In this document: positions 48,195 through 64,000 of the stretch, piece after piece
How the letters are laid out: every line of letters starts with the position of its first letter
Numbering within the stretch: the first letter of the stretch is position 1
DNA from: a virus
Lineage: Duplodnaviria; Caudoviricetes
Virus record (IMG/VR): IMGVR_UViG_3300028888_000055
DNA length: 64,000 nt
Direction: 5' to 3' (one strand)
Made by a program: the position numbers and the translations under genes
Notes under the pieces: model-generated
What the model saw: the letters and a program-made list of their open reading frames with translations, nothing else
What the model was told of the DNA's origin: nothing
The model's database searches: none

Positions 48195-48211
48195 AAAATA
48201 CATTTTTTCAT

Positions 48212-48247
48212 AAAAAAGAGAGATACTATTTATATATAATATCTCTC
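48212..48247 (-). terminator. Intrinsic terminator downstream of ompA
   Basis: Stem GAGAGATA / TATCTCTC with a + strand A6 tract (U-tract on the - strand). Confidence 0.6.
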
Positions 48248-48275
48248 ATTTTATATTAATAATAACTGATCTAGC

Positions 48276-49376: not shown

Positions 49377-49404
49377 AAAATCATTAATTCAATAAAAAAG
49401 TATC

Positions 49405-50120: not shown

Positions 50121-50151
50121 AACTCATGTATATATTTATAGTTAATTTTCC

Positions 50152-52200
50152 TTAATGGACCCAATGATCAGAGACTGAGGCTTCTGCAGGGATAGGCAAA
50201 GATTTGCAATATATTGATGCAGCTTTTTCCATACATTCTTTAAGAATATCTGGAGTTTCTTTTATTTCTTCTTTATAAATTACATTAATTTCATCATGAA
50301 CCAAAGCAGATAATTCAACATCCTTAAAATGATTATTATCTACTATCCAATTAAAAAACATAGTAGCAGCAGTTTTTAAGATTACACTTCCACTTCCCTG
50401 TGTCGGGGAATTCAAAGCATATCTTTCATATTTGCTAGATGCTCTAAAGTGCATAGACACTTCTCGAGCAACAGCATCTCCAGTACCTTTATGGTATTGT
50501 CCGTATTCTTCCCAAAATTCTGGAGTAAAAGATTGCTGTCTAGCTAACCATGCATCGTGGTCCCACCAGTACATTTTATGACCACTTTCTTTACACATTA
50601 ATATATATCCATGCTTCTTTACGAAAGCGGCCCCTTCTTTCTTAAACTTAGCAATTCCAGGGAAACCACTAGCATATGCATTAGCAAAATTCCGTGCTTC
50701 TTCTAATGTACATCCCATCGCTCCCATAATAGCATATTCAGAACCTCCAAATTGTTGGCTAAATTCTATACCTTTTACTGCTTTTCTTAAATGAGGATAT
50801 AATTTCTTTATATCTTTTATAGGGGTGTCTCTTGGTATCTCCTTATATACCATATAAGCACATAGTGAATGCATATCTCCACTACCGTGCAGAAACTCAT
50901 TTAACATGGAAGTCTCATTATATATATCTGCTCCTAATCTACTTTCCAATGCACTATAATCACAGCTTACCCATTTATACCCTTTAGGGGCAGTAAATGA
51001 ACCTCGTGTTGGGGCATCAGCTGGTAATTGCTGCATATTAGGATAAGTACAATCTTTAGGGCTTAAATTTTTATACTTGGCTAAATCATAGTTAGGTTGT
51101 TGACTTCCACAGGACATCCTGCCTGATCTAGCTCCAAGTTGTTTATAATTAGTATGTATTCTGTCGGTTATTGGGTTAATAGCATTAAGGTGACCTTCAC
51201 CAAAGGATGTAATTACTTTAAACGCCTCCTGAAAATTAAAATATAACTTTAGGAATTCATCATTTATTCCTTTTTGAACTTTAAGATGCTTTTCAAGTAC
51301 ACTATCTTTATCTTCTCCAGTCTTTTTGTCTTTTACTTCAGTATTAAATCCTAAATCCTTAGCTATTTTAACAACTTGTTGACTACTTGCCCAATTAACT
51401 GTACATATGGGAGTAGTATCAAATCCATCAAATAGACTACCTTGTAGATTTACTCTAGTATATTTAGATAAAGCAGGATTATTAACAACAAAATCATCAA
51501 GGGCTTTTTTGCTGTCTTCATACTTAAGTCTATCATTCTTCATTTTTTCTTTCCACTTATCTGCATCCAAGTGTATTCCACACCATTCAAGATAAGCTAT
51601 AGCTGGAATAAAGTTACACTCTACTTGAACTGCTTTCTTAAGGTCTTGTTTCTTTACATCCTTTAATTGTGAATTAGCTATATCTCCTAAATATGTGACA
51701 TCTCCTGCCGCATATTTAATAACTTCTTCATCCAATCCTCTCCATATAATCTCACCTCTAACTGTTTTATCAATATCAATATTTAGCCTTCTAGCTGCTA
51801 TTGAACGCAAAGAATAAGATATTACGCTGCTAGGATACCCTAAATGCAGTAGTTGTTCTACAATCATAGTGTCATATACATTTCTAGGTATAATACCATA
51901 ATTATATAAGAACTGTAAATCAAACTTTATATTTTGACCTACTAACTTTTTACTTTCTAGAATATCTTTATACAGTAAAGGAGAAATCGTGGTAGTATCA
52001 ACAACTATTTGATTTTCTCCTTTAATATCTCCAAATTGCATACAAAGCAACTTACAGAGATGTGGATCACGACCTTCGGTTTCAGAATCGTATTGGATGA
52101 AGCTCCAGGATTCCATCATTTTAATGGAATCTTCTGGAGTCATCATCGTGTACGCGTCTGAGTCAAATAGTTCTTTTTGTGTACTTACAAAATATATCAT
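50152..52200 (-). CDS. polA: Family A DNA polymerase with 3'-5' exonuclease
   Basis: Exo motifs YDSET, NIKFD, YDTM and YAAGD; motif A DYSALESR; motif B R...K...F...FG; motif C VHDE. Confidence 0.95.
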   Translation of the reverse strand: MIYFVSTQKELFDSDAYTMMTPEDSIKMMESWSFIQYDSETEGRDPHLCKLLCMQFGDIKGENQIVVDTTTISPLLYKDILESKKLVGQNIKFDLQFLYNYGIIPRNVYDTMIVEQLLHLGYPSSVISYSLRSIAARRLNIDIDKTVRGEIIWRGLDEEVIKYAAGDVTYLGDIANSQLKDVKKQDLKKAVQVECNFIPAIAYLEWCGIHLDADKWKEKMKNDRLKYEDSKKALDDFVVNNPALSKYTRVNLQGSLFDGFDTTPICTVNWASSQQVVKIAKDLGFNTEVKDKKTGEDKDSVLEKHLKVQKGINDEFLKLYFNFQEAFKVITSFGEGHLNAINPITDRIHTNYKQLGARSGRMSCGSQQPNYDLAKYKNLSPKDCTYPNMQQLPADAPTRGSFTAPKGYKWVSCDYSALESRLGADIYNETSMLNEFLHGSGDMHSLCAYMVYKEIPRDTPIKDIKKLYPHLRKAVKGIEFSQQFGGSEYAIMGAMGCTLEEARNFANAYASGFPGIAKFKKEGAAFVKKHGYILMCKESGHKMYWWDHDAWLARQQSFTPEFWEEYGQYHKGTGDAVAREVSMHFRASSKYERYALNSPTQGSGSVILKTAATMFFNWIVDNNHFKDVELSALVHDEINVIYKEEIKETPDILKECMEKAASIYCKSLPIPAEASVSDHWVH

Positions 52201-52490
52201 AATTGATATTGTTTTACATATTCATATAAAGAATCTAAATCATAGCAAATCCTATTTCCGTTTTCATCGGTTGCTATATGGTCTTTACCTTCAAATATGT
52301 ACCACATTATCCAATCAATTCCATATTCATTAAAGTGACTAGCTAACAAAGTTTCAAATATTACAAAACCTTCAGTATATAAAGGAGACTCTCCTATTTC
52401 TATATGATGGTTATCCCATAACTTATTTCCTTCGTTTAGTAATACTTCTACACTTTTAATAGCCCTGATAAATAATTCTTTAGTTATCAT
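52197..52490 (-). CDS. Hypothetical protein
   Basis: 97-aa ORF, ATGA-coupled to polA. Confidence 0.75.
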   Translation of the reverse strand: MITKELFIRAIKSVEVLLNEGNKLWDNHHIEIGESPLYTEGFVIFETLLASHFNEYGIDWIMWYIFEGKDHIATDENGNRICYDLDSLYEYVKQYQL

Positions 52491-52719
52491 ATTCTATGAG
52501 CTCTACATTAAAATTATCTGAGTCTACTTTTGTAAGTATATAGTCACTTATAACTTCTTCTATCGCTTTTATATGTTCTTCTCCTACTGTTACAGGGATA
52601 TCTTCCCTTGCTGAACGAATCATATCGCTAAATAAAGGATCATCCATAAACTTTTCTACGTCAACAAAGAATTCACCAGTAATTTTTGCAACAACTTTCA
52701 TATTAATACCATGTTTCAA
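52480..52719 (-). CDS. Hypothetical protein
   Basis: 79-aa ORF in operon. Confidence 0.65.
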   Translation of the reverse strand: MKHGINMKVVAKITGEFFVDVEKFMDDPLFSDMIRSAREDIPVTVGEEHIKAIEEVISDYILTKVDSDNFNVELIEYDN

Positions 52720-53083
52720 ATGTTATATATTCTGTATCTTGTAAGTTATCGAATGCGGGCAGTATATTAGTTTCTAGTTTCTTTAATACTTCTTCTACAT
52801 CCTGTATATAATATTTATCATAAGCTGTACTACCGAAAAAGAATCCATCCATAGTGGGCAATAGTTCTTTACAAGTAGTAACATCATTTAGTACTGTCCT
52901 ACATCGTTTCACCAGTTCCTCACACATTCCTTTAGTGATTTCTAGAGGAATCTGTTCTGCAATATTAAATCCTTTATCACCAAAAAATCTTACTAAAAAG
53001 TTAACTTTACGAAAATAACTAACTTCTTCTGCGTCTATGTTTTTATTTCTATTTCTACGGAAGAAAAATATATCTAATCCCAT
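52703..53083 (-). CDS. Conserved phage hypothetical protein (MGLD...YFRK.N...GFFFG family)
   Basis: MGLDI, YFRKVN and LLPTMDGFFFGS.AYD..Y pattern, common in phages. Confidence 0.8.
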   Translation of the reverse strand: MGLDIFFFRRNRNKNIDAEEVSYFRKVNFLVRFFGDKGFNIAEQIPLEITKGMCEELVKRCRTVLNDVTTCKELLPTMDGFFFGSTAYDKYYIQDVEEVLKKLETNILPAFDNLQDTEYITFETWY

Positions 53084-53101
53084 ATTTAAATTTTTTATTT
53101 A

Positions 53102-53614
53102 TTATTTACCTGTATGTCCAAATCCTCCATCGCCTCTTTCAGTTTCACTTAATTCAGTAACTTCTACGAGTTCGATTTTAGGATAAGGTAATATCATCAT
53201 TTGACAAACTCTTTCACCAACTTTATAAGGAGCTAAAGCACTTATAGTATTAGCATAAGCGTTTATCACAGTATTCTGGTCATGAGATAGTGTAAGATAA
53301 GGCGTTATAGGCAACTTATCTCTATTCTTAAATACTACTAATAGTTCTCCTCTATAACCAGAATCAAGAGTACCAGGAGCATTAGGTATATAAACGTCGG
53401 TCTTAGTGTTACTGCTTCGTGGTCTAAGATCCATATAATAACCTTCTGGAACTTCAAACGCTAAACCTGTATGATAAATATATCTATCATTTTGTAAATC
53501 ATACTCCACATCTACGGCCGTTATATCCATGCAAGCATCTCCTGGCATTGCATATGTAGGAACAACTGCATCTTCACGCAGTTTCTTGAATTTCACTTGT
53601 AACGTCTCTCTCAT
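53102..53614 (-). CDS. dut: Trimeric dUTPase
   Basis: GDACMD, RPRSS, GTLDSGYRGE, GERVCQ and ERGDGGFGHTG motifs. Confidence 0.95.
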   Translation of the reverse strand: MRETLQVKFKKLREDAVVPTYAMPGDACMDITAVDVEYDLQNDRYIYHTGLAFEVPEGYYMDLRPRSSNTKTDVYIPNAPGTLDSGYRGELLVVFKNRDKLPITPYLTLSHDQNTVINAYANTISALAPYKVGERVCQMMILPYPKIELVEVTELSETERGDGGFGHTGK

Positions 53615-53969
53615 TAAATTTAAATTTATACTCAGAGTTTAAGGTATGAAAAACATTATTTTCCCAGTCAATAGATTGAACTGTAGATGTATAGTAATAT
53701 ACATCATTGTCTTCCATATAACAGGAAATTCCTTCTCCAAATCCTGGAGTAATGCCTTTCATTTTTACTGCATCTAGAGGAGTATCTACAACTTTCTCGA
53801 TTTCGATATCCCCCATTTTAGACTTTTTTACTGCTTCATATACAAACATGAAATCTTTTCCATATTTGTTTACAAAGTCCTCTTCAGACATCTGTCTTAT
53901 CTCCATTATCTTCAATATCATCGGATGATGGAGAGTGAGATGCATCACAGGGCGTTTTATCTTTGACAT
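53574..53969 (-). CDS. Hypothetical protein
   Basis: 131-aa ORF; start uncertain because of overlap with the upstream gene. Confidence 0.65.
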   Translation of the reverse strand: MSKIKRPVMHLTLHHPMILKIMEIRQMSEEDFVNKYGKDFMFVYEAVKKSKMGDIEIEKVVDTPLDAVKMKGITPGFGEGISCYMEDNDVYYYTSTVQSIDWENNVFHTLNSEYKFKFNERDVTSEIQETA

Positions 53970-54234
53970 AATTTACTATATTGTTAATATTACATTCATT
54001 TGCTTCTGAATAGAAGCCTTTTATTCCTTTCTTATTTTCATAAACAGCTACAAATGGAACTAATCTTGCCCCAAAAGAACTTTTTATTTGACGAGCTTTT
54101 CTTTTATCGCTAAATATATCCTCGTCATAAAATTCTAAACTAACTGGATAACCTTCCAGCTCTTTAGTTAAGCTGGAAGGATCCAATTCGTTAGTTAGTA
54201 AACTATTATAAACCAATTTTAGTGTCATAAGCAT
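53884..54234 (-). CDS. Hypothetical protein, possibly thioredoxin-fold without CxxC
   Basis: Follows nrdJ; FGARLVPFVAVY resembles the cis-Pro strand of Trx folds. Confidence 0.55.
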   Translation of the reverse strand: MLMTLKLVYNSLLTNELDPSSLTKELEGYPVSLEFYDEDIFSDKRKARQIKSSFGARLVPFVAVYENKKGIKGFYSEANECNINNIVNYVKDKTPCDASHSPSSDDIEDNGDKTDV

Positions 54235-56678
54235 TTACTATAATCACAGTCTAAACATCTTATACATCCTCCTTCTCGAATCAATCTACCTCCGCACTTA
54301 GGACAGGTTTCAGCACTTTCCTCTTTAGGCATATACTTACTTAATATCCTACATATTGCAGAACTAAATGATGTTATATTCTCATTAACTTTCTTTTCAG
54401 TCTTGATAATGAACTTTAATGGAATTCCGTGTCTTAATAATGCACTTACTAACAATGTACAAGTTCTTTGTTCTGCATTAAGAAGACTATCTAAGTCATC
54501 TATGTTAATGAGATCCGAGTGGAAGCTATATAATCCCTTAGCCTTTTTTGTTAATATGCCTTTATGATTATTTATTTTTATCTGTTTTTCTGGTTTGAAA
54601 CAGAAGGCTTCATAAGGTTTATTCTTATATAAGCCTATCATAACATAAAAGATTTCTCCACCTACTTTCACAGAATAGAATTCGGCATCTAACTTCTTAG
54701 GACGTTTAGGCGCACTGATGGAAGACTCAAATCTTTCTTCCTTTTGTTTATCACTGACAGAATTAAGAATACCCTCTCTACATCCATCGCGATATACTGT
54801 AACACCCTTTAAACCATTCTCCCAAGCTTCTTTATAAATTTCAGATATCTCTTCTTCTTTAGTTTCTGTAGGTAGATTTATAGTAGATGATATGCTATGG
54901 GTTATAAAAGTTTGACATGCGGCCTGAGTCATAATTCTATAATGCCAGTCAATGTCATGCGCTGTCGCTCCATAATAGGGACTTTCCTTGTAAATAGCAT
55001 CCCATTTATCAAGGTCCCATTCATCAATGTTTTCTTCTGGATATTTTACTTTAGCCCAACGCTTTAAGCCCTCGTGTACGACCATATATTCAGTAAATTT
55101 AATACCTAATTTATCTACATAGTCTACGCGATCAGTATCAGAAGTACATTTCTTTCTTCTCTTATAGTATGGCATAAATACAGGTTCAATACCTGAAGAT
55201 GTTTGAGTGAGCATTGCTACACTACCAGTTGGCGCAATGGTACTGAAAGATATATTACGTCTTCCAACCTTTAACATCTTTCTGTATATCTCAGGATCGT
55301 ATTGCTTTACAAAGCTTTGGAATAATGGATTCTCTTTATCAAATCCATCATATTCTTCAAATACTCCTCTAGATTCTGCCATATCTACAGATGCTTTAAG
55401 TTCTGCTCTGAAAATAGTTTCCATTACAGCTTTTATAATGGGAATAGATTCTGGAGATCCATATTTAACATTAAGTTGAGCCAACATATCGGCTAGTCCT
55501 AATATTCCTACACCTGCTCTTCTTCCTCTTCTTGAAACATCGAGAATCTTTTCCCACATTTTCTGTTCTTCAGATTCAGATTCACATACATCAATAATCC
55601 TTTTTACTGCTTCCTGCTCTAAGTCTACTAAGTCATCTCCCAATTTCATGGCATAATACCCTAAATGAGCTATAACATTATAGTCTAATTCCGCTTTTTC
55701 AGTATACGGATATTTGACGCATTTGGCAAGGTTAATATGAATCAATCTACAAGAATCCATAGCTCCCATACCAATCTCTCCACAAGGATTAGTGGAAATC
55801 ATACTAAATTCTGGATAATAACGATCTGGTGCTTTTAAGTGCATTGCATCGTCAAATATTATACCAGGCTCGGCTGTATTCCAAGCACAATGAATTAATT
55901 TATTCCATAAATCTCTTGCTTTGATTCGTTTGACGTACTTATGATATCCTACTTCTATAAGTTCGCCGATTTTACTATTGGTCGGAACATATATAGTATC
56001 AAAGTCTAAGTCAAGAGGATATCTTTGATAATATACCTCATCATTCTTGACAGCTCTCATAAAAGCATCGGATACCTTTACAGAAATATTAGCACCTGTA
56101 ACCTTCGTTAAATCTTGCTTCTTTTCTATAAATTCTTCAGCATCAGGATGATCGATAGATATAGTTAACATCAAAGCTCCTCTACGGCCATTCATGGCTA
56201 CTTCATTAGTTAGTGCTGAATTTACATCCATAAAAGATGCTGCACCAGTAGAAGTAGAAGCGGCATTATTTACCATTGCCCCATTAGGTCGCAACTTAGA
56301 CAAGTCATATCCTACGCCTCCGCGTCGTTTCATTAATTGAATCTGATAGTTTCTAATTTTCATTATTGAATTATAACTATCTTCTGGAGATTCAACTACA
56401 AAACAATTGGATAGACTTACAGGTTTTTCTAGACCAGCATTTGCCAACACAGAACCGCCTGGAATAATATATCCGTCCTTAAATAAGTTTTTAATAAAAT
56501 CATTGGCTAATACCCAATGATCTTCTTTATAGTTAGATTCTATTCTTGCAAATTCTTTGGATAATCTTTCATATGTATCATCTGGAGTTTCTTCATTTTC
56601 GGCTTTGTATTTATTCTCCCATACAGAAGCCGCCAACTCATCGCCATTAAAATACTCTAAAATTTTCTTATCCATCAA
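54225..56678 (-). CDS. nrdJ: Class II (adenosylcobalamin-dependent) ribonucleotide reductase
   Basis: PGGS, SLSNCFV, RRGGVG, GRRGALM, TNPCGE, IAPTG, SSTINLP, KGVTVYRDG and C-terminal CPKC...CLDC. No small subunit gene nearby. Confidence 0.93.
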   Translation of the reverse strand: MMDKKILEYFNGDELAASVWENKYKAENEETPDDTYERLSKEFARIESNYKEDHWVLANDFIKNLFKDGYIIPGGSVLANAGLEKPVSLSNCFVVESPEDSYNSIMKIRNYQIQLMKRRGGVGYDLSKLRPNGAMVNNAASTSTGAASFMDVNSALTNEVAMNGRRGALMLTISIDHPDAEEFIEKKQDLTKVTGANISVKVSDAFMRAVKNDEVYYQRYPLDLDFDTIYVPTNSKIGELIEVGYHKYVKRIKARDLWNKLIHCAWNTAEPGIIFDDAMHLKAPDRYYPEFSMISTNPCGEIGMGAMDSCRLIHINLAKCVKYPYTEKAELDYNVIAHLGYYAMKLGDDLVDLEQEAVKRIIDVCESESEEQKMWEKILDVSRRGRRAGVGILGLADMLAQLNVKYGSPESIPIIKAVMETIFRAELKASVDMAESRGVFEEYDGFDKENPLFQSFVKQYDPEIYRKMLKVGRRNISFSTIAPTGSVAMLTQTSSGIEPVFMPYYKRRKKCTSDTDRVDYVDKLGIKFTEYMVVHEGLKRWAKVKYPEENIDEWDLDKWDAIYKESPYYGATAHDIDWHYRIMTQAACQTFITHSISSTINLPTETKEEEISEIYKEAWENGLKGVTVYRDGCREGILNSVSDKQKEERFESSISAPKRPKKLDAEFYSVKVGGEIFYVMIGLYKNKPYEAFCFKPEKQIKINNHKGILTKKAKGLYSFHSDLINIDDLDSLLNAEQRTCTLLVSALLRHGIPLKFIIKTEKKVNENITSFSSAICRILSKYMPKEESAETCPKCGGRLIREGGCIRCLDCDYSKCL

Positions 56679-56679
56679 A

Positions 56680-57474
56680 TTAGTTTAAAGATTGAATGCC
56701 TAGAATCTTGCCTGCTAATAAAGTCTTTTCTGGTATACTAAATACATCTCTGCCTTTAGTTACCATATTAGTTATTTGCTGAGTCATCGCGTTATATACA
56801 TCATACATATTAACAGTATCCCCTACTTGATAATAGTCAGAATTTTCTTCCAAGAATAAGCTCTTATATGCAGATATAATGTTATCAACGCTTAATTTTA
56901 CTGGTTGGAAGCCATTGTTCCAATTCATAAGGAGGGTATTATCTACCCATTTTCCTAATAATTGTTCTCTTGCTTCTACACTGTTTTCAAATTTCTCTTC
57001 GTGTAGTTTAGTAAGAATAGCATTTGTTTCGTCTTTTAACTCTAAGATATGCTCCAAAGGTTTAAAATCAATAGGAGTTTCTGGTTCCAAAGCTTGAATA
57101 CTTAGATAAGAAGGACTAAAGATACACAAGTTAGTACAAGCAGCATTAAGTGCTCCACTATAGAATTTAACCACTGGCTTTCTTACATCAAGACCCATCA
57201 CCATTCCTATGACTTTGTCATGATTTGCGTACATATCTTCATCAGGCATCACAGCTTCAATATATACTCTATTATAAGTAGTATCATGAGAACTAGTATC
57301 GCCAGTTTCAGTAACAGTTATTTGCTCAGGAGTTTGTACGTGTATTCTAAAATCATCTGTATAATTTGATAATCTATCAAAGAAAGGTCCTACATAATTC
57401 GCAGTCTTGAAATAAGCTTTTTTACCAATAATCGTTGGTTTTCCTTCAAATAATTCTTTTACCTCAATATCCAT
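56680..57474 (-). CDS. DUF932/DUF3871-like conserved crAss-like protein
   Basis: KFYSGALNAACTNLCIF and YDVYNAMT motifs. Confidence 0.6.
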   Translation of the reverse strand: MDIEVKELFEGKPTIIGKKAYFKTANYVGPFFDRLSNYTDDFRIHVQTPEQITVTETGDTSSHDTTYNRVYIEAVMPDEDMYANHDKVIGMVMGLDVRKPVVKFYSGALNAACTNLCIFSPSYLSIQALEPETPIDFKPLEHILELKDETNAILTKLHEEKFENSVEAREQLLGKWVDNTLLMNWNNGFQPVKLSVDNIISAYKSLFLEENSDYYQVGDTVNMYDVYNAMTQQITNMVTKGRDVFSIPEKTLLAGKILGIQSLN

Positions 57475-57478
57475 ATTT

Positions 57479-57832
57479 TCATTCTTCTTTTTCTCCCTGC
57501 TCTTCTTGTAATTTAGTGATTTGATCCTGTACCCAAGATTTCCATCTGGTTTCTATAACTTCTTTATAAGTATTCCAAATTTCTCTAACTTGATCATTAT
57601 CATATCTCCACTCTCTTTGCCCTTTTGTAGGTACATAAAAACGAGCAGTAAGTTCTTTTAATACTTTTTCATCTTCTTTTGTGCCGTGTTCAACGATATC
57701 TATAATTTCTGTATCAGGATTATAAGATATATACTCTTTTAATCTTGGATACTCATCATCAATTTTTGCTCTTTCGGACCACCCTATTTTAACTTTATCG
57801 TGGCCATTACTTACTAAATATATCATTATCAT
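57479..57832 (-). CDS. T5orf172/GIY-YIG-like putative free-standing homing endonuclease
   Basis: MIYLVS....VKIGWS...RL.EY...NP...E......REW pattern. Confidence 0.7.
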   Translation of the reverse strand: MIMIYLVSNGHDKVKIGWSERAKIDDEYPRLKEYISYNPDTEIIDIVEHGTKEDEKVLKELTARFYVPTKGQREWRYDNDQVREIWNTYKEVIETRWKSWVQDQITKLQEEQGEKEE

Positions 57833-57841
57833 TTACATTTA

Positions 57842-57914
57842 AGTGAGTTATCTAGTGATACTAGGTTACTCTCACTATTATTAAATAGTAGAGTGGCAAT
57901 ACGCCACCCTACTA
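57842..57914 (-). promoter_or_regulatory. Two tandem hairpins upstream of the endonuclease gene
   Basis: AGTGAG..CTAGT-GAT-ACTAG..CTCACT (57842-57876) and TAGTAGAGTGGC-AATAC-GCCACCCTACTA (57886-57914). Confidence 0.6.
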
Positions 57915-57918
57915 ATTA

Positions 57919-58446
57919 TCAGCCTACAAATCTAAAGAATGTATAAGCACCCTTCTGAGTGCCCTTAGAAGGCGTATACGTGCATTCTAAAGCTTTAATA
58001 TTATTTACGTCAATCTTGATTGGCATTATATAAGCATCTTCTTTTGCTCCAAGAGTGTATAAGAGTCTAAGAGCTTTAATTGCATCTTTCTTCTGCTTAT
58101 AATAATTAGAATGTAATTTACCACCTATAACAATAGCATAATGTTTTACATAATGTCTTGCTTTAGCTGGAATATTCTTCATACTATAAGGTCTAGTACG
58201 CTTATTTTCCTTGCCTTGATTTTCGACGATATATAAGCTAATATTTTCTTCATCTTTGCATTTCTTTTCAAGTTGCTCTTCCATAAACTGTTCTAAATCA
58301 GCTCCAGTTGGACGACCTGCCTTCTGCCAAGCTATAGTGCAATTAGCACCAGAGTCGGGAAACATCACCGCCTCACCAGTAGGAAATTGATCTAGAGCAT
58401 CTTTCAAAGAATAAGCTTCAAATCTTTCAACTTTTAATATTGCCAT
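57919..58446 (-). CDS. Conserved crAss-like hypothetical protein
   Basis: 175-aa ORF containing NCT.AW, RTRPY, K..AIK and YTPSK...G.Y.FF. Confidence 0.75.
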   Translation of the reverse strand: MAILKVERFEAYSLKDALDQFPTGEAVMFPDSGANCTIAWQKAGRPTGADLEQFMEEQLEKKCKDEENISLYIVENQGKENKRTRPYSMKNIPAKARHYVKHYAIVIGGKLHSNYYKQKKDAIKALRLLYTLGAKEDAYIMPIKIDVNNIKALECTYTPSKGTQKGAYTFFRFVG

Positions 58447-58464
58447 ATTATTTATTAAAATTAA

Positions 58465-58824
58465 TTAAAATGGAATCCATGTATCTAAAATTCTTTTAAC
58501 TTCTGCAATCATTTCTTTATTAGATTTGAAATCTAATTTAGGTATTTCACCAGTTATGCCTTGCATAAAATCTTCACACATTATTGCTAACCCTCTGATA
58601 GCTGCAACGAAATCATCACAATATGATCCATCTTTAAATACTATCTTGGCTAACACTTCCCAGCATGTGATGTCTGGATTTTTCTCTCTTAATTTTTGTG
58701 TTATATAACATATACTCATTATGAGAGTTATACGATCCTCAAAGGGACCATTAAAATTACACACACCATAATACTTATTATATGTGTCTTTTAATTCTTG
58801 ATAATTAGGTGTCCAAGTCTCCAT
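58465..58824 (-). CDS. Hypothetical protein
   Basis: 119-aa ORF in operon. Confidence 0.75.
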   Translation of the reverse strand: METWTPNYQELKDTYNKYYGVCNFNGPFEDRITLIMSICYITQKLREKNPDITCWEVLAKIVFKDGSYCDDFVAAIRGLAIMCEDFMQGITGEIPKLDFKSNKEMIAEVKRILDTWIPF

Positions 58825-59824
58825 CTTGTATCTTATTTAATTCTACTTCAGCTGCCATTTTAAGTAGTCTAATAAACTCTTGAAAACCTTCTTTTATTTC
58901 AGAGTCATATACTTCATATATGCCAGAATTACATTCTGAAACTGTACTTACTACTAACATATTAGCTTTGAAGCTATTTATATTTGTCAGATTGTGATAT
59001 TTTGCAACATATTCCTTAAGCATAAAAGCATAAAGGCCCATTTGCCTAGCATAATGATACTCTTTGAAACTATGTTTAAAATACTCTAATGGATGTCCAG
59101 AAGTCTTTAAATCATTTAATACTAAAGAACATTTGTCAGTATCAACAGTAAAATTATCAAGTTTTCCTTTTACTCTAAGTATAACAAATTTTCCTGTTTT
59201 AGTATCAGTGGCCATAAAATCTAGAAACAAAGCAGCTTCATTCATTACTTTAGATCCCTTAGGATATAAGAGATTCATAATATTATAATTTAAATGTAAT
59301 GAACTTGTACACATCATACAGGTCTCATAACTACGTGCATCTAGAAATATATTTTCCACATTAAGATATTTAGTTTCTTCTTCATACCTATCTTTAAAAT
59401 AAGGAATACACTGATCGAGTACATTTTGTATACGAGAATCTGTAAGAGAATTAGAATAATAATCTACTTCAATACAAGCAGCTTTTACATCATTATAAGT
59501 AGGAGATTGTTTATTCTTTTTCCATTTCTTATATAATATATCAGCTACAAATCCAAGTTTTGCACTTGGCCGACTGGTAATATCTGATAATCTAAAATCC
59601 TTAGGCTGTAAAATAACTTCATGTACAGCACTTCCTAAAAGTAAACTATTAGAATAATTAGGTTTAAAACCTGCTAAATATTTCTCTACAGATCCTCCTT
59701 GGTCGGGATTTATCAAGCTTAGTTTAGAATTACTAATACAATTAGAAAACTCTTTAGAAAAATAGCGTTCATCACTCATTTCAAGATACTGAACGCTATT
59801 TGGTATATATTCAATTTTTATCAT
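58805..59824 (-). CDS. PD-(D/E)XK exonuclease (RecE/ExoVIII-like, DUF3799-type)
   Basis: ISNSKL, LGSAVHE, E, KGKLD, LNDLKT and YHYARQMGLY. Confidence 0.85.
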   Translation of the reverse strand: MIKIEYIPNSVQYLEMSDERYFSKEFSNCISNSKLSLINPDQGGSVEKYLAGFKPNYSNSLLLGSAVHEVILQPKDFRLSDITSRPSAKLGFVADILYKKWKKNKQSPTYNDVKAACIEVDYYSNSLTDSRIQNVLDQCIPYFKDRYEEETKYLNVENIFLDARSYETCMMCTSSLHLNYNIMNLLYPKGSKVMNEAALFLDFMATDTKTGKFVILRVKGKLDNFTVDTDKCSLVLNDLKTSGHPLEYFKHSFKEYHYARQMGLYAFMLKEYVAKYHNLTNINSFKANMLVVSTVSECNSGIYEVYDSEIKEGFQEFIRLLKMAAEVELNKIQDGDLDT

Positions 59825-60357
59825 ACTAAATCTTTAAAGCTATAAAAATGTTTCTCCATAAATTCATCATAAGCCTTGCATATAGTATCATAGTCAAGGG
59901 ATTCAATCCTTCCTACTTCCCCCCAACTTTGATTATTAGGAGTACTGTACAATAAACAAGGTACGCCAGCTAGATTTAACTGAATCATATTATGTATACT
60001 ATCGTCAATAAAGACATCGACTTTTCCTTTTATTCTTTTTGATTTATCTACCCGATGTCCATACATCTGATATACTGGACTATTAGGAAAGCCATTATCC
60101 TTTAGCCACTTTTTAGACCAGGCTTTATTGTTAACTCTAGCAGTACAATATAACACTGGAACAAAATCAATTTTATTCTTTACAGGTAAAGTAATCCAAA
60201 ATTGTCTATTTGTCTTTAGATCCCTGACAACATTCTTTGTTATTCGATGTTCTTTCAGTCTACTTGGATATTTCTTTACATTGTAATATTCACAATAGGA
60301 CTCCCACCAATAACACAGGCAGTCATCAATGTCTAAACCAATCTTTAAATCTCTCAT
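59821..60357 (-). CDS. HAD-superfamily phosphatase (5'(3')-deoxyribonucleotidase-like)
   Basis: Motifs GLDIDD, CTAR, K and FIDDS. Confidence 0.85.
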   Translation of the reverse strand: MRDLKIGLDIDDCLCYWWESYCEYYNVKKYPSRLKEHRITKNVVRDLKTNRQFWITLPVKNKIDFVPVLYCTARVNNKAWSKKWLKDNGFPNSPVYQMYGHRVDKSKRIKGKVDVFIDDSIHNMIQLNLAGVPCLLYSTPNNQSWGEVGRIESLDYDTICKAYDEFMEKHFYSFKDLV

Positions 60358-60581
60358 TCAAATTCATCTAAACTATATATATCCCCAATTACTACATTTG
60401 CTGTGTCTAATAATATACCTCTAAATTCAGAAAAAGTATCTGGATCAATATCTTCATCATCTATATATTTATCCATTAAAATTTTCATATACTTATCTTC
60501 AGCAGCCCTAAGATCTTTAGCTACTACTTTGTATATAATATTATCTACATCAGAGCATATTGGTAATAGATATGTATTCAT
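60354..60581 (-). CDS. Hypothetical protein
   Basis: 75-aa ORF, ATGA-coupled. Confidence 0.7.
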   Translation of the reverse strand: MNTYLLPICSDVDNIIYKVVAKDLRAAEDKYMKILMDKYIDDEDIDPDTFSEFRGILLDTANVVIGDIYSLDEFE

Positions 60582-60586
60582 ATTAT

Positions 60587-61000
60587 TTATTTTTTACTAA
60601 TCAATTCTAGGAAATAATCCAGAGGAATCATAGCAATAGTTCCTTCACTATTATGTCCAGATGTCCCTGTCTTTTTCCAAATAACACAAAACGGTTTGTC
60701 TTTATCTGTACAAGCATCTCGTATTGCAAAATATCTAGGCGTAGAAATAGTATTTTTTGTTTGTATATTACAGGGCAGTTCACCATTTAAATCCACGACA
60801 TCAATCTTATTAGCGTCAGCCATTTTATTTACGGCACGACTAGATTTGCATCCTGAATACCCTATTTGTTTTAATTTATTTACTATTTCAAGTTCAAATT
60901 TATTTCCTTTACGCCTATTGCGTTTACCTATACTTGATTTCTTGATCTTTTCATCAGATAGCTAATCTTTGTTTTGTGCTTTACAGTTTTTCTTTTGCAT
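60587..61000 (-). CDS. Hjc-like Holliday junction resolvase (137 aa) with one in-frame TAG at codon 13
   Basis: The ORF track gives only 60587-60823. The frame extends upstream through KGNKFELEIVNKLKQIGY...SSR to a TAG (60964-60962) and then to ATG at 61000, overlapping the primase end. Motifs G..FE, D, IQTK and IP..YF. Confidence 0.8.
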
Positions 61001-61979
61001 ACTCAATTAATTCAAGAGTCTTTTCTCTACCAAATTTATTATAATAATCCGAAATATCTTTTGCGCCATATTTTCTAGGAATCCAGAAACATTTCACTCC
61101 AAATTTCTTCCTAAATTTATTCATATTCTGGATACCAGCTAAATCATTATCATAAAATATAACGATGTTCTTAAACCTTTTATGCAAGGCTTCAAACTGT
61201 TTTTCAGTTAGAAATAAATTCTCAGAATTAGGTGCTATTGCAGTAATTCCTAAAGAATATAAACAAGCCACATCTTTTAAGGCTTTGGTTACTACTAAAG
61301 TATCTCCGCTAGAAGGTAACTGCTTTGCTCCTTGGAGCATAGTAGCTCGCCAATTAGATAGGAACTTTGGTTCTTTCTTTCTGTGTTTAGGAAGATATAT
61401 TCTCCATAATTCCATTCCTTTGGAATTCTTTCCTCTATAATAACCATATATAGGATGTGATTTGCTAGAAGTGGTAAAGATATTCCCATTTAAAAATACA
61501 GTATTACAGGAGAATATCCTAAATTTCTTTAGGATATCCTCAGTAACACCGAATTGGTTCCACCATTTGAGTTCTTCTGTAGAAAAGTCTTTTATTTCAA
61601 CTTGTATAACAGCTTCTTGAGTTTCCTCAAATCTGTCTTCGCTTACTTTTATGACTTTTCTTGTTCTAGGCCTATCAGTATGTATGAATCCAAAATCATT
61701 TCCTATGATTTTAAGAGCTTCATGATACGAGCAATTGTATTTAAACATCACAACATTTATAAAATTGCCTCGCATATCCGAGCCAAAATCCTTAAATATG
61801 ATATCGCCTTTTTTATTTTTATAAAAAGAACACGTCGGATTTTTGTCATCCCTTAAAGGAGAAACAAATAATCCTTTCCGTACAGGGACTCCCAGGTAGT
61901 AATTAAGATAAGTCTCTTGAGAATACTTACTTAACAAATATTCTTTAGTAATTGTAGGTTCTAATCTAAATATTGCCAT
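60981..61979 (-). CDS. dnaG: DNA primase (TOPRIM), crAss-like
   Basis: N-terminal SPLR.DKNPT...FKDFG zinc-finger-derived domain; TOPRIM region VVTKALKD...APNSE...FYDND.AG...KDISD. Confidence 0.85.
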   Translation of the reverse strand: MAIFRLEPTITKEYLLSKYSQETYLNYYLGVPVRKGLFVSPLRDDKNPTCSFYKNKKGDIIFKDFGSDMRGNFINVVMFKYNCSYHEALKIIGNDFGFIHTDRPRTRKVIKVSEDRFEETQEAVIQVEIKDFSTEELKWWNQFGVTEDILKKFRIFSCNTVFLNGNIFTTSSKSHPIYGYYRGKNSKGMELWRIYLPKHRKKEPKFLSNWRATMLQGAKQLPSSGDTLVVTKALKDVACLYSLGITAIAPNSENLFLTEKQFEALHKRFKNIVIFYDNDLAGIQNMNKFRKKFGVKCFWIPRKYGAKDISDYYNKFGREKTLELIEYAKEKL

Positions 61980-62000
61980 AACTATTATTTCCTATTAGAA

Positions 62001-62011
62001 CTACAAATTTA
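62001..62011 (-). promoter_or_regulatory. Bacteroidota sigma70-type -7 promoter element upstream of primase
   Basis: The reverse complement reads TAAATTTGTAG (TAnnTTTG), ~22 nt upstream of the primase ATG. Confidence 0.55.
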
Positions 62012-62019
62012 CTAAATTA

Positions 62020-62688
62020 TTAAAGATCGTCCAACTCTAAATCATCTGTATCATCAGCCTTAGAATCGTCTTCTAAGTCGTCAGGCATAACAGTTGGTCT
62101 AGTGTTAGCGAGAGCATCTTTTGCTTTAAGTTCGCGAGCTGTAAACTTAAGTTCAGACTCATTTGCACTAATCCAGTTATTGCTAAAGAAAGCTTCGTCT
62201 GTCTTAGTATTAATTTGAACAGAATTTGGTAGAGAAGCATAGCCCTTATTATTGGCAACTACCTTGATATAGAATTCCTTATCGATACTAGAATTAGTAG
62301 CCTTAACAAGAACCTCGACAAGCTTATCAAATTCGGCTGGCAATTCCAAATTTAATTTGCCCTTAATCTTCTCATAGTTTTCTGGTGCCACTACAGATAA
62401 GAAATGGGCTACATTAAAGATAAGTTGCTCCATAGCAGAAGGCATAACCCACTTATAAGTTCCAGTGTCGCCAGACATTCTTTCTTCGCCCTTGGCATCA
62501 GGACAGAAGAACATAGTGTCAAATACTCCAGACTCTCCGTCAAATTTTATCTGAAAAGCTTTCCACTCGCGGCCTTCCTTAGACTTTCCTTCTTTGGCTT
62601 CAATACCTTTGAAGGCAACTTTAGAGATTGTAAAAGGAGCGATTCTTTGGACCGCTGTAGTGTTTGCATTTGAAATATTAAACTTCAT
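62020..62688 (-). CDS. Probable single-stranded DNA-binding protein
   Basis: Beta-rich N-terminus, strongly acidic C-tail (DDLEDDSKADDTDDLELDDL), and position between the ATPase and primase genes. Confidence 0.6.
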   Translation of the reverse strand: MKFNISNANTTAVQRIAPFTISKVAFKGIEAKEGKSKEGREWKAFQIKFDGESGVFDTMFFCPDAKGEERMSGDTGTYKWVMPSAMEQLIFNVAHFLSVVAPENYEKIKGKLNLELPAEFDKLVEVLVKATNSSIDKEFYIKVVANNKGYASLPNSVQINTKTDEAFFSNNWISANESELKFTARELKAKDALANTRPTVMPDDLEDDSKADDTDDLELDDL

Positions 62689-62690
62689 AC

Positions 62691-63236
62691 TTAATTAATT
62701 AATGATTCAAAATTTATATCCTTCAGTTCTGTACTCTTATCAAACTCTGCTAACCAGTCGTCTAATTCGTCAGAACTTTCTTTTTCATCTATATCTATTT
62801 CTTCGTCAGCACTTGGAAGTTCTATATGTTCGTCTTCCGCTACTATAGGTTCAGCATCTTTACTGACTAACTTAAAGAAAGTACCATCATAATATTCAAT
62901 AGTAAATTCAGTACCATATTTAGACAATACTTCATTTGCTGTACCTCTATAACTTACTGTTTTACTTTTAGTAAGCTTATTACCAGCATCTTCTGACCTA
63001 CATATTACAGGATACATAAAGCCATCTATTTGAGAATATTCGATATTTAATCTATCTCCATAGGTAGCATTTAATAATTCCATAGCTGCACTATTTAACT
63101 CATATTTGTTATCTCGTAATATTAATAAAGGTTTAGTGCTAGTTTCTATTTCTTCTAATATTTCAGAAGTAGTAGATAATACTTTAAAAGTATTATCCTT
63201 TCCTACTTCTGCAAGAGTTGTTATTTTAATTTTCAT
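62691..63236 (-). CDS. Hypothetical protein with acidic tail
   Basis: Likely start MKIKITT at 63236 (ATGA overlap with the upstream ATPase). Confidence 0.7.
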   Translation of the reverse strand: MKIKITTLAEVGKDNTFKVLSTTSEILEEIETSTKPLLILRDNKYELNSAAMELLNATYGDRLNIEYSQIDGFMYPVICRSEDAGNKLTKSKTVSYRGTANEVLSKYGTEFTIEYYDGTFFKLVSKDAEPIVAEDEHIELPSADEEIDIDEKESSDELDDWLAEFDKSTELKDINFESLIN

Positions 63237-63970
63237 TTCTTCAATGATGGATAAATTCTTTCCCAATGTGAAACAAACGATCCGTCTGGCTGCAACTCAG
63301 CCACTATAATTTTCTTATTAGCTAAATGCTCGGGTCTGGCTCCTGCCGTAGCGTCACCATTTGTTTCAAAATTTATACATAAATTACTGTTTTCGTCTCT
63401 AAATACGAATCCAATTGCATCACTTTTAGCTGCTAATATCCTGCCAGTTTTACCTGTTAAATCCAACTCTTTAATATTACTGTCCTGGGTTTCTCCCATA
63501 GTAACAATAGCCTTGTCTTTAACATGCCCTACCAATATAATATTAGGTGCACACATAGCAAGTTTTTCAATAATTTTCTGCATAGCTTCTCTGAGGAAAC
63601 CATAGCCTGCTCCATGAGGAGCATGAAGGACATCATTATCATTAAAATTCGAACCAAGAGGAGACTCTTTATACATTTTAAGGGCAAGAGGTTTGGCAAA
63701 TTCCTCTAATGCAGTAACTGTATCAATTGTTATAAACTTATAAGGATATGATGCTTCCTTAATAGCCTTACACAACTCATTAAGCTCCTTAATGGTAGTA
63801 ATTTTTACTTTCATAGCTTCCACATAATCAGAACCTTCTTCTAAATCTATAATAAGATTATCTTCCAAAGTAGCTAACAAAGAAGTCTTTCCAATTTTAG
63901 GAACGCCATATAATATTAAATTTTTAGGATCTTGAGTTACTTTAGGCAATTTCTTTAAAGGTAAATCCAT
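63233..63970 (-). CDS. AAA_24/Sak4-like P-loop ATPase
   Basis: YGVPKIGKTS, IIDLEEG, ITIDT, GAGY, LVGH and SDAIG. Confidence 0.85.
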   Translation of the reverse strand: MDLPLKKLPKVTQDPKNLILYGVPKIGKTSLLATLEDNLIIDLEEGSDYVEAMKVKITTIKELNELCKAIKEASYPYKFITIDTVTALEEFAKPLALKMYKESPLGSNFNDNDVLHAPHGAGYGFLREAMQKIIEKLAMCAPNIILVGHVKDKAIVTMGETQDSNIKELDLTGKTGRILAAKSDAIGFVFRDENSNLCINFETNGDATAGARPEHLANKKIIVAELQPDGSFVSHWERIYPSLKK

Positions 63971-64000
63971 TAATTTATAATTTAAAAGTTGCTTTAGGAG

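What the first reader, a model, noticed from the sequence alone, without database searches (positions are those of the whole stretch)
60587..61000. Single amber codon gates the Holliday junction resolvase inside the standard-code replication arm
Seen: all other - strand genes are free of in-frame TAG, but the resolvase reads MQKKNCKAQNKD[TAG]LSDEKIKK...KGNKFELEIV. The ATG at 61000 overlaps the primase stop. No ATG/GTG/TTG lies between the TAG and the essential G..FE motif, and the next ATG (60823) would lose that motif. Inference: the gene is co-transcribed with early replication genes but yields active nuclease only once amber suppression is on. It would then act as a one-codon translational timer that delays debranching of replication intermediates until packaging. 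This suggests recoding used as gene-specific regulation, not just as an arm-wide property.
Basis: partly seen in the sequence, partly recalled or inferred. Interest (0 to 1): 0.88.

Follow-up and report, generated by a model that had tools for sequence, protein, structure and literature searches.

The report
Conserved amber codon gating phage nuclease
A gut phage that reads the stop codon TAG as glutamine only in its late genes keeps one TAG at the start of a DNA-junction-cutting nuclease gene among its otherwise TAG-free replication genes, and almost all relatives do too, so the enzyme probably cannot be made until the phage's own suppressor tRNA is active.

Summary
ORF 60587-61000 (-) starts at ATG 61000 and has TAG as codon 13 (60964-60962). 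No ATG/GTG/TTG lies before the catalytic Glu36. The other 29 minus-strand genes in the window have no in-frame TAG, and none stops with TAG.

Across 85 related loci plus the window, about 79 carry one in-frame TAG near the start of this gene:
- Codon 12-13 in the short form (the window's clade).
- Codon 4-6 in the ancestral long form, which has an extra NUMOD-like domain, down to 45% identity.

No TAG was found in about 170 orthologues of neighbouring genes. In late genes TAG drifts freely to CAA/CAG, and only 20-25% are kept at 40-60% identity. TAG is therefore selected as TAG.

Relatives carry a Gln-like suppressor tRNA(CUA) at the head of the recoded strand. The protein is an Hjc-like PD-(D/E)xK nuclease (E36, D67, Q80, K82), predicted to be a homodimer. 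It sits between the primase and an exonuclease VIII-like gene.

Best reading: nuclease synthesis is gated by the suppressor tRNA. Whether the gate acts as a timer or as a dose limiter was not tested. The general idea is published (Borges et al.); this conserved single-codon case in a core gene appears to be new. First readers of this scan noted the same pattern on other DNA.

The parts
60587..61000 (-). Hjc-like PD-(D/E)xK nuclease gene (137 codons plus TAA), short form, read with TAG=Gln
   Evidence: Searches give the translation. PHROG 244 matches at E=1e-8 over residues 25-136. The profile against PDB sequences finds Sulfolobus Hjc at E=0.003. Best structural matches are Hje/Hjc at Z 6.2-7.0.
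60998..61000 (-). ATG start codon, 15 nt upstream of the primase stop codon (the two ORFs overlap by 20 nt)
   Evidence: In every relative an ATG followed by Lys-rich codons precedes the TAG.
60962..60964 (-). In-frame TAG, codon 13: the gate codon
   Evidence: It is conserved at codon 12-13 in all 6 short-form relatives and at codon 4-6 in the long forms. No difference is listed at this place in contigs from 4 runs.
60755..60895 (-). Catalytic core: Glu36 (60895-60893), Asp67 (60802-60800), Gln80 (60763-60761), Lys82 (60757-60755)
   Evidence: These are invariant columns in alignment A1. They align with the E, D, E and K of the Hjc motif.
60981..61979 (-). DnaG-type primase, the upstream neighbour; contains no TAG
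   Evidence: Pfam Toprim_2 and zinc ribbon, PHROG 12622. It lies directly upstream of the nuclease gene in all but a few loci examined; in L083 a homing-endonuclease-like gene lies between them.
60354..60581 (-). 75-codon ORF that starts 6 nt after the nuclease stop; its translation could depend on ribosomes reading through the TAG (inference)
58805..59824 (-). Exonuclease VIII-like gene (recombination context)
   Evidence: PHROG 412, E=5e-15.
63233..63970 (-). Sak4-like single-strand annealing protein gene (recombination context)
   Evidence: PHROG 124, E=3e-26.
42980..64000 (-). TAG-free ('dual-coded') replication and nucleotide-metabolism arm
   Evidence: No in-frame TAG in 6514 codons, and no TAG used as a stop.
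1..42916 (+). TAG-recoded late arm (giant virion and RNA-polymerase-type proteins)
   Evidence: 228 TAG in 14127 codons. The ORFs are open only with TAG read as sense. TAG alternates with CAA/CAG in relatives.

Best explanation
The window comes from a crAss-like phage of the ruminant gut, of the 160-195 kb genome class. In this phage TAG is decoded as glutamine by a phage-encoded suppressor tRNA(CUA).

The replication and recombination arm avoids TAG altogether, so it can be translated with or without the suppressor. The one exception in this module is a small homodimeric Hjc-like PD-(D/E)xK nuclease, encoded just downstream of the primase gene. It is most likely the phage's junction-resolving or debranching enzyme. 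Its mRNA has a TAG a few codons after the ATG.

Without the suppressor, release factor 1 ends translation after a 3-12-residue peptide and no nuclease is made. With the suppressor, Gln is inserted and the whole enzyme is made. Selection keeps the codon as TAG rather than CAA/CAG. Nuclease synthesis is therefore tied to the code switch: it is delayed, limited, or both.

Shown here:
- The TAG is needed for a catalytically complete protein.
- It is conserved far beyond the neutral turnover of TAG.
- It is unique among the syntenic core genes.
- TAG means Gln in this phage group, and relatives carry the suppressor tRNA.

Inferred:
- The order of events in infection.
- Junction resolution as the substrate.
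- The selective reason, namely avoiding cleavage of branched replication and recombination intermediates before packaging.
For: 1. The TAG is required. No ATG/GTG/TTG lies between the TAG and Glu36, and the next ATG removes the first catalytic residue.

2. It is conserved.
- 85 loci plus the window gave 48 distinct proteins.
- TAG sits at codon 4-6 in 37 distinct long-form proteins, on both sides of the midpoint root. This includes GenBank MT835492 at 45% identity.
- TAG sits at codon 12-13 in all 6 distinct short-form proteins of the window's clade.
- The codons beside the TAG and the upstream DNA vary freely.

3. Neutral baseline. Late-arm TAGs are kept as TAG in 77% of cases at 90-100% identity, 25% at 50-60% and 20% at 40-50%. 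The main replacement is CAA/CAG.

4. Control genes. 28 other arm genes compared across up to 17 genomes or loci (about 170 orthologues) have no in-frame TAG. The nuclease gene has one in 16 of 17.

5. Codon use in the window. The late arm has 228 TAG, which is 36% of Gln-type codons. The early arm has 0 TAG against 155 CAA/CAG. The nuclease gene has 1 TAG and 4 CAA.

6. Suppressor tRNA. A tRNA(CTA) lies near the 5' end of the recoded strand in G001, G003 and G004. Those of G003 and G004 resemble tRNA-Gln most. The same layout is reported in preprint 10.1101/2022.06.29.495998.

7. Other nuclease genes in the early arm of relatives also carry TAGs. These look like homing endonucleases: a T5orf172 protein with 9 TAGs and a NUMOD3 protein with 6 TAGs.

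8. Nuclease identity.
- Profile match to Sulfolobus Hjc at E=0.003, with the motif residues aligned.
- Best folds are Hje/Hjc at Z 7.0-6.2, rmsd 3.4-3.5 over 91-93 residues.
- The homodimer model scores 0.85 against a best control of 0.00. That mark was reached by 20 of 30 solved pairs of one chain and by 1 of 23 proteins solved as single chains. The runs agree in 100% of contacts and pLDDT is at least 86. Because Hjc dimers are already solved, this pass may reflect likeness to them.
- Recombination genes flank it: a Sak4-like protein and an exonuclease VIII-like protein.

9. No RNA structure or Rfam element lies at the site (z=0.0). Decoding by a tRNA therefore fits better than context-driven readthrough.
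Against: - No expression, ribosome or peptide data exist, so the timing is an assumption taken from the published model of recoded phages.
- The window itself holds no tRNA. The suppressor is seen only in relatives.
- One recoded relative (G005, locus L094) has lost the TAG and starts with GTG. Four more distant short forms (L132-L135) also have none. The gate is therefore dispensable.
- In clade L091-L097 a TTG or ATG lies two codons after the TAG, so there the protein could be made without suppression.
- The third catalytic acid of Hjc is Gln here. The structural scores are only middling, and the single-chain model has a mean pLDDT of 67.
Confidence: 0.62

Rival explanations
1. Dose limiter rather than timer. 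The suppressor is present whenever the gene is translated. The TAG, competing with release factor 1, only lowers the yield of a potentially harmful nuclease. Placing it at the 5' end means failed attempts release a tiny harmless peptide rather than a truncated DNA-binding fragment.
For: - The TAG is always within the first 13 codons, whereas only 11% of late-gene TAGs lie in the first tenth of an ORF.
- The one recoded relative without the TAG uses a GTG start, which is usually weaker.
- Extra TAGs almost never accumulate in the gene; only L063 has a second one.
Against: The rest of the arm avoids TAG completely. That is hard to explain if suppression were already on when the arm is read. The suppressor tRNA gene lies on the other, late strand. 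This rival overlaps with the best explanation rather than excluding it.
Confidence: 0.22
2. The real start lies downstream of the TAG. On this view the ATG-Lys-Lys-TAG is a mini upstream ORF, possibly a coupling or regulatory leader. The nuclease then starts at a rare codon (ATA/ATC in the window's clade) or at the TTG/ATG seen in some relatives, without any suppression.
For: - Clade L091-L097 has TTG or ATG two codons after the TAG.
- The PHROG profile match begins at residue 25.
- Ile24 (ATA) is conserved in the short form.
Against: - In most long-form clades the next ATG/GTG/TTG is 26-112 codons after the TAG, inside or beyond the conserved NUMOD-like domain. That domain's amino-acid conservation begins right after the TAG.
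- In the short form, indels on both sides of the TAG are multiples of 3, and the residues flanking the TAG are conserved as 'NKD-TAG-L' outside the primase overlap.
- TAG-free homologues carry similar basic N-terminal tails of 14-24 residues beginning at an ordinary ATG or TTG.
- An in-frame upstream ATG plus TAG would have no reason to persist across all the long-form lineages.
Confidence: 0.1
3. Neutral passenger. The gene is in effect a late gene with its own late transcript, so a TAG is merely tolerated. Its presence would reflect shared ancestry rather than selection.
For: Recombination and debranching enzymes act late in other phages (established knowledge: T4 gene 49, T7 gene 3). A few other TAG-bearing genes do lie on the same strand further along G001.
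Against: - Neutral TAGs turn over to CAA/CAG quickly. Only 20-25% are kept at 40-60% identity.
- Here the TAG is kept along roughly 4-5 substitutions per site of tree (my sum of branch lengths). It also appears at a different codon after the N-terminal domain was lost.
- A late gene of 137-185 codons would be expected to carry 2-3 TAGs spread along it at the late-arm rate of 1.6%. This gene has exactly one, always at the start.
Confidence: 0.06

Closest known systems
[quoted passage not shown] 2021, PMC7886860; Peters et al. 2022, PMC9523058; Mgcod preprint 10.1101/2022.06.29.495998)
   Same: - TAG=Gln in late genes.
- TAG-free 'dual-coded' replication genes.
- Suppressor tRNA at the head of the recoded strand.
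- The idea that in-frame stops hold back proteins until the code switch.
- Borges et al. note an intron homing endonuclease, inside an early gene of Agate phages, that is preferentially recoded and so 'should' be made only late.
   Different: - Here it is one codon, not many.
- It sits at a fixed place next to the start.
- The gene is a vertically inherited core gene of the replication and recombination module.
- TAG retention was measured against the neutral TAG-to-CAR turnover.
- None of the six papers whose text I searched for 'resolvase' mentions this gene.
bldA tRNA-Leu(UAA) and TTA-codon control in Streptomyces (from my own knowledge, not tested here)
   Same: A codon absent from almost all genes is kept in a few target genes. 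Their translation then depends on one dedicated tRNA whose supply changes with the stage of the life cycle.
   Different: TTA is a rare sense codon rather than a stop. There is no competition with a release factor. That system is cellular and developmental, not a phage code switch.
Archaeal Holliday junction resolvases Hjc and Hje (PDB 1hh1, 1ob8, 2wcw, 1gef)
   Same: - About 120-residue PD-(D/E)xK core.
- The leading K-G-x-x-x-E helix, the Asp and the Lys are aligned.
- Best structural matches.
- Predicted symmetric homodimer.
   Different: - The second acidic residue of the E-x-K motif is an invariant Gln ('NIQxK').
- There is a basic N-terminal tail, or a NUMOD-like DNA-binding domain in the long form.
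- Sequence similarity is marginal, and the activity is untested.
Late-acting phage debranching nucleases: T4 endonuclease VII (gene 49) and T7 endonuclease I (gene 3) (from my own knowledge)
   Same: The proposed role is the same: clearing branched DNA before or during packaging. Expression is kept away from early replication.
   Different: They have unrelated or only distantly related folds. Their timing is set by transcription, not by a stop codon.

Membership tests
Hjc-type Holliday junction resolvase (PD-(D/E)xK) | Catalytic Glu on the first helix, plus Asp and Lys of the core motif | tested here: met
   E36, D67 and K82 are invariant in alignment A1. They align with the E, D and K of Sulfolobus Hjc in the profile match (E=0.003). 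The Hjc residue numbers E12, D42 and K57 are from my own knowledge.
Hjc-type Holliday junction resolvase (PD-(D/E)xK) | Second acidic residue of the E-x-K motif (Hjc Glu55) | tested here: not met
   The aligned residue is Gln80, invariant as 'NIQxK' in all 15 aligned sequences. I therefore call the protein Hjc-like rather than a member.
Hjc-type Holliday junction resolvase (PD-(D/E)xK) | Hjc fold | tested here: inconclusive
   Top three of 48161 chains: Hje 1ob8 (Z 7.0, rmsd 3.4, 93 aligned), Hjc 1hh1 (Z 6.4) and 2wcw (Z 6.2). The tool warns that Z under 8 is common. Foldseek gave only E>=0.05, but its top-ranked matches were mostly PD-(D/E)xK-type nucleases. Model mean pLDDT is 67.
Hjc-type Holliday junction resolvase (PD-(D/E)xK) | Homodimer | tested here: met
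   Model only. Score 0.85 against a best control of 0.00. That mark was reached by 20 of 30 solved pairs of one chain and by 1 of 23 single chains. Contact agreement is 100% and pLDDT is at least 86. It may reflect likeness to solved Hjc dimers.
Hjc-type Holliday junction resolvase (PD-(D/E)xK) | Cleavage of four-way junctions | not testable with these tools
   This needs purified protein and synthetic junctions.
RusA resolvase (the label of PHROG 244) | RusA sequence family or fold | tested here: not met
   No Pfam RusA match at E<=0.1. Sequence-profile and structural matches go to Hjc, Hje and VRR-NUC instead. The PHROG label appears to be loose.
Code-15 (TAG=Gln) crAss-like phage with a dual-coded early block | Late genes open only with TAG read as sense, and TAG exchanges with CAA/CAG in relatives | tested here: met
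Code-15 (TAG=Gln) crAss-like phage with a dual-coded early block | Suppressor tRNA(CUA) at the 5' end of the recoded strand | tested here: inconclusive
   None is in the window. It is present in the 88%-identical complete genome G001 at 126017-126091 (+), and in G002-G004.
Code-15 (TAG=Gln) crAss-like phage with a dual-coded early block | Early block free of in-frame TAG | tested here: met
   No TAG in 6514 codons of 29 genes. The nuclease gene is the single exception in the window.
Context- or structure-driven programmed stop-codon readthrough | Conserved 3' context or downstream RNA structure | tested here: not met
   The base after the TAG is A, G, C or T in different lineages. The fold z-score is 0.0. 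No Rfam match.
Free-standing homing endonuclease (NUMOD-type DNA-binding domain plus nuclease) | Sporadic, mobile distribution | tested here: not met
   The gene sits between the primase and the same downstream genes in all 21 loci examined (in L083 a homing-endonuclease-like gene is inserted after the primase). It diverges in step with them: 50-60% identity where the primase is 52-54%.
tRNA-gated codon control (bldA/TTA-like) | The codon is confined to a few genes, and the cognate tRNA's supply is stage-dependent | not testable with these tools
   The first half is met. The timing of tRNA expression cannot be read from DNA.

The most novel reading that the evidence does not exclude
A single amber codon is an evolved, family-wide molecular switch. 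It is ancestral to this crAss-like lineage, kept for roughly 4-5 substitutions per site, and present again at a new codon after the N-terminal domain was lost. It makes synthesis of the phage's junction-cutting nuclease strictly dependent on the phage's own suppressor tRNA. Because translation stops early in the operon, it may also hold back the downstream recombination genes through polarity. More generally, nuclease genes placed among early genes (this one and the homing endonucleases) would be the class these phages lock behind the code switch. That would be a natural stop-codon counterpart of bldA/TTA control.
Probability: 0.45. Interest if true: 0.78.

Novelty: new variant of a known kind. 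Interest (0 to 1): 0.68.

Why it matters
Stop-codon recoding in phages has been described mostly as a property of whole genome blocks. Its proposed role as a regulator rests mainly on enrichment statistics.

This case offers a minimal and testable example. It is one codon, in one core gene, in a module that otherwise never uses it. It is retained where neutral TAGs decay, and it is seen in dozens of independent assemblies from human and ruminant gut.

It gives three things:
- A direct assay: the leader-TAG fused to a reporter, with and without the phage tRNA.
- A predicted peptide to look for in metaproteomes.
- A practical warning for annotation. Gene callers using code 11 truncate this nuclease or give it a false start, and block-wise code assignment misses it.

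It also suggests looking for single gate codons as a reason why some phages keep suppressor tRNAs without obvious recoding. PMC12386605 raises that puzzle. I did not test it.

Tried and rejected
- Pfam gave no family for the nuclease. Foldseek against the PDB gave no match at E<=0.001.
- The GenBank phage collection holds only two relatives of the nuclease, MT836281 and MT835492, both unannotated. I could therefore not test named Zeta or Epsilon crAss-like genomes, or the phages with 'orphan' suppressor tRNAs.
- No whole genome is held for the window. I used the 88%-identical complete relative G001 instead.
- A frameshift from primase into the nuclease frame is rejected, because the TAG lies downstream of the overlap in the nuclease frame. 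The ATG at 60954 is in a third frame and stops after 8 codons (read).
- The candidate minus-strand ORF 52197-52547 with 3 TAGs is most likely a 5' over-extension. By analogy with its G001 counterpart, whose TAGs all precede an in-frame start codon, an in-frame ATG probably follows them. A standard-code ORF at 52480-52719 fills the rest of the gap.
- RNA fold and Rfam searches at the site found nothing.
- The contigs from the RNA-library runs cannot show transcription, strand or level. The 7362-nt contig of run X1 spanning 59800-61598 may be DNA carry-over.
- The recoding status of the TAG-free short forms L132-L135 could not be settled, because their contigs (7-22 kb) cover only early genes. 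TAG is used as a stop 1-2 times per contig, mostly with a back-up stop close behind.
- My automatic 'needed TAG' test under-counts the long forms, because it accepts GTG/TTG codons inside the N-terminal domain as starts. I checked those cases by eye.

Full report
**What is in the window**

The plus strand, 1-42916, encodes giant proteins that are open only when TAG is read as a sense codon. The minus strand, 42980-64000, is tiled by ordinary ORFs.

- Late arm: 228 TAG in 14127 codons, which is 36% of all Gln-type codons.
- Early arm: 29 minus-strand genes, 6514 codons, no TAG, and 155 CAA/CAG. About 105 TAGs would be expected at the late-arm rate. None of the 26 large ORFs stops with TAG (17 TAA, 9 TGA).

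The arm is therefore TAG-free, or 'dual-coded' in the sense of preprint 10.1101/2022.06.29.495998. It is not positively 'standard code'. The window has no tRNA gene.

**The observation**

ORF 60587-61000 (-) reads MQKKNCKAQNKD-TAG-LSDEKIKKSSIGKRNRRKGNKFELE....

- The TAG is codon 13 (60964-60962).
- No ATG, GTG or TTG lies between it and Glu36.
- The next ATG (60823) gives a 78-residue remnant that lacks Glu36.
- The ATG lies 15 nt upstream of the primase stop codon (TAA 60983-60981). The two ORFs overlap by 20 nt in different frames.
- Contigs from four sequencing runs (three studies; sheep, goat and other gut samples) cover the site. No difference is listed at 60962-60964, while neighbouring positions vary. 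The output did not show 102 lower-ranked differences.

**What the protein is**

- Pfam finds nothing. PHROG 244 (labelled 'RusA-like Holliday junction resolvase') matches residues 25-136 at E=1e-8.
- A profile of 15 homologues finds Sulfolobus Hjc as the best PDB sequence (E=0.003). The leading KG..E helix, the Asp and the Lys are aligned. The second acid of the E-x-K motif is an invariant Gln, 'NIQxK'.
- An AlphaFold model (mean pLDDT 67) has Hje and Hjc as its three best matches among 48161 chains (Z 7.0, 6.4, 6.2; rmsd 3.4-3.5 over 91-93 residues). These are middling scores.
- A two-copy model passes the test for binding: 0.85 against a best control of 0.00. That mark was reached by 20 of 30 solved pairs of one chain and by 1 of 23 single chains. 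The runs agree in 100% of contacts and pLDDT is at least 86. Because Hjc dimers are already solved, this shows likeness more than proof.
- The neighbours are a Sak4-like annealing protein, the primase, a phosphatase or kinase-like protein, an exonuclease VIII-like protein, ribonucleotide reductase and DNA polymerase A.

I call it an Hjc-like PD-(D/E)xK nuclease and the probable junction resolvase of a recombination module. I do not file it as a member of the Hjc family, because one defining residue differs.

**Relatives**

Protein and pattern searches gave 76 database proteins and 80 IMG/VR loci, plus two GenBank records and four assembly contigs.

Most homologues are a long form of about 181 residues, with an N-terminal NUMOD1 / I-HmuI-NUMOD-like domain. 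Those Pfam hits are below threshold.

Synteny is kept in all 21 loci examined: the nuclease gene lies between the primase and the 178-aa and exonuclease VIII-like genes (in L083 a homing-endonuclease-like gene is inserted after the primase). The nuclease also diverges in step with its neighbours, at 50-60% identity where the primase is 52-54%. It is a vertically inherited core gene, not a mobile homing endonuclease.

**The key result**

Read at the DNA level, nearly every relative has exactly one in-frame TAG next to the start.

| Form | Typical start | TAG position |
|---|---|---|
| Long | ATG AAA AAG TAG | codon 4 |
| Long | ATG GCA AAA CGT TAG | codon 5 |
| Long | ATG GCA AAA AAA GTA TAG | codon 6 |
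| Long (MT835492, 45% identical) | ATG TCA AAA AGT AAT TAG | codon 6 |
| Short (window's clade) | ATG + 10-11 codons + TAG | codon 12-13 |

- The codons around the TAG, the base after it and the upstream DNA all vary. The TAG does not.
- In the long form, amino-acid conservation of the N-terminal domain begins directly after the TAG. In most clades the next possible start is 26-112 codons after the TAG.
- In the short form, indels on both sides of the TAG are multiples of three.
- A maximum-likelihood tree of 48 distinct proteins puts long-form-with-TAG on both sides of the midpoint root (37 rows). It places the six short-form-with-TAG rows as one clade (100/99), next to four TAG-free short forms.
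- The TAG-bearing part of the tree sums to roughly 4-5 substitutions per site. That is my own sum of the printed branch lengths.

Exceptions:
- L094 (genome G005) has a recoded late arm but no TAG in this gene, and it starts with GTG.
- Four distant short forms, L132-L135, translate correctly under table 11.
- In clade L091-L097 a TTG or ATG follows the TAG by two codons.
- L063 has a second TAG, at a Gln position.

**Controls**

- 28 other genes of the arm, compared with up to 17 genomes or loci (about 170 orthologues), have no TAG inside the aligned region. None has an upstream TAG that would be needed to reach the start. The nuclease gene has a TAG in 16 of 17.
- In late genes TAG is a drifting synonym of CAA/CAG. 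It is kept in 77% of cases at 90-100% identity, 59% at 80-90%, 25% at 50-60% and 20% at 40-50%.
- Only 11% of late-gene TAGs lie in the first tenth of an ORF.

Retention of one TAG, always at the 5' end, across about eleven well-separated lineages is therefore not neutral. Its presence at a non-homologous codon in the clade that lost the N-terminal domain points the same way. I cannot say whether that TAG arose by re-creation or by a deletion that preserved the original.

**Decoding machinery**

- Five related genomes or long contigs were read in full (three judged complete). All have TAG-recoded late arms.
- G001 (160.7 kb, terminal repeats, about 88% identical to the window) has a tRNA with anticodon CTA at 126017-126091, on the recoded strand near its 5' end. 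G003 and G004 have the same layout, and G002 has three such genes.
- The G003 and G004 suppressors resemble the phages' own tRNA-Gln most, at 66-68%.
- There is no RNA structure (z=0.0) and no Rfam element at the TAG.

**Mechanism**

While the cell reads TAG as stop, ribosomes that start at the ATG release a 3-12-residue peptide and no nuclease is made. Once the suppressor tRNA is charged with Gln, the full enzyme is made.

Placing the gate at the 5' end avoids truncated DNA-binding fragments. The published model puts the suppressor at the head of the late strand and treats early genes as readable in both codes. Under that model the nuclease follows the code switch even though its gene lies among early genes.

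The rationale is inference. A junction-cutting enzyme would damage recombination-dependent replication, and is needed when concatemers are debranched for packaging. T4 gene 49 and T7 gene 3 work this way (from my own knowledge).

The same logic seems to apply to homing-endonuclease-like genes inserted in the early arm of relatives. These are full of TAGs: a T5orf172 protein with 9 and a NUMOD3 protein with 6. Borges et al. proposed exactly this for an intron endonuclease in Agate phages.

A pure dose-limiting role cannot be separated from a timing role with sequence data. Premature termination might also lower expression of the tightly packed downstream genes. I did not test that.

**Comparison with what is known**

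Block-wise recoding, TAG=Gln, the position of the suppressor and 'recoding as regulator' are all published. Proteomic proof of code 15 is in PMC9523058 (seen in the abstract only).

I searched the text of six papers for 'resolvase' and found no mention of this gene or of a conserved single gate codon. I rate the finding a new variant of a known kind.

First readers of this scan noted the same thing in three other windows. Those notes agree with what I saw independently in the IMG/VR loci. They are not independent evidence.

**Verdict**

- The dependence on TAG decoding and the selection on the codon are well supported.
- The timer function and the junction-resolving activity are inferred.
- Interest 0.68.

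Noticed in passing
G001 (relative of the window) 83884-86004 and 88828-89844, minus strand; loci L014:3884-6004 and L014:8828-9844: The 'TAG-free' arm of the complete relative holds three ORFs with 2-6 in-frame TAGs beyond the window's end. One has weak endolysin or tape-measure PHROG hits. Gene-specific recoding on this strand is therefore not limited to the nuclease.
   Followed up: partly
L039:12708-13181 and L083:9049-9843: Homing-endonuclease-like genes are inserted in the early arm of relatives and are packed with TAGs. One is a T5orf172/GIY-YIG-like protein with 9 TAGs. The other is a NUMOD3 protein with 6 TAGs, and it sits between the primase and the nuclease gene.
   Followed up: partly
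L037:8836-9873, L095:8629-9660, L097:8776-9825, L080:6363-7382: In several relatives the primase ends with TAG followed by a back-up TAA/TGA 1-8 codons later. The protein would gain a short tail once suppression is on.
   Followed up: no
window 54225-56678 versus L019:14325-17761 (G001 66459-69898): The ribonucleotide reductase large-subunit gene is intact in the window. In G001 it is interrupted after residue 166 by about 1 kb carrying a 303-codon ORF, probably an intron or intein with its endonuclease.
   Followed up: no
L094:9830-10387 (genome G005): This is the only recoded relative whose nuclease gene lacks the TAG. It has a 2-codon deletion at that place and starts with GTG instead of ATG.
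   Followed up: partly
G001 78885-79100, minus strand (L013:18885-19100), about 1 kb beyond the window's end: A 71-codon ORF with a single TAG at codon 46, upstream of the helicase/initiator genes. It is possibly a second single-TAG element.
   Followed up: no
L063, nuclease gene: One relative has a second TAG, replacing the Gln of the conserved 'SRSQNK'. This is a direct in-gene example of TAG standing for Gln.
   Followed up: no
G002 7229-7302, 177163-177250, 181157-181229; G004 132203-132273: One relative carries three predicted tRNA(CTA) genes. Another carries a predicted tRNA with anticodon TTA (an ochre suppressor) beside its tRNA(CTA).
   Followed up: no
window 60300-61300: Near-identical DNA occurs in sheep, goat and cattle gut runs from 13 studies, including RNA libraries. 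The window's clade is a ruminant-gut phage, while most long-form relatives come from a very large gut data set.
   Followed up: partly
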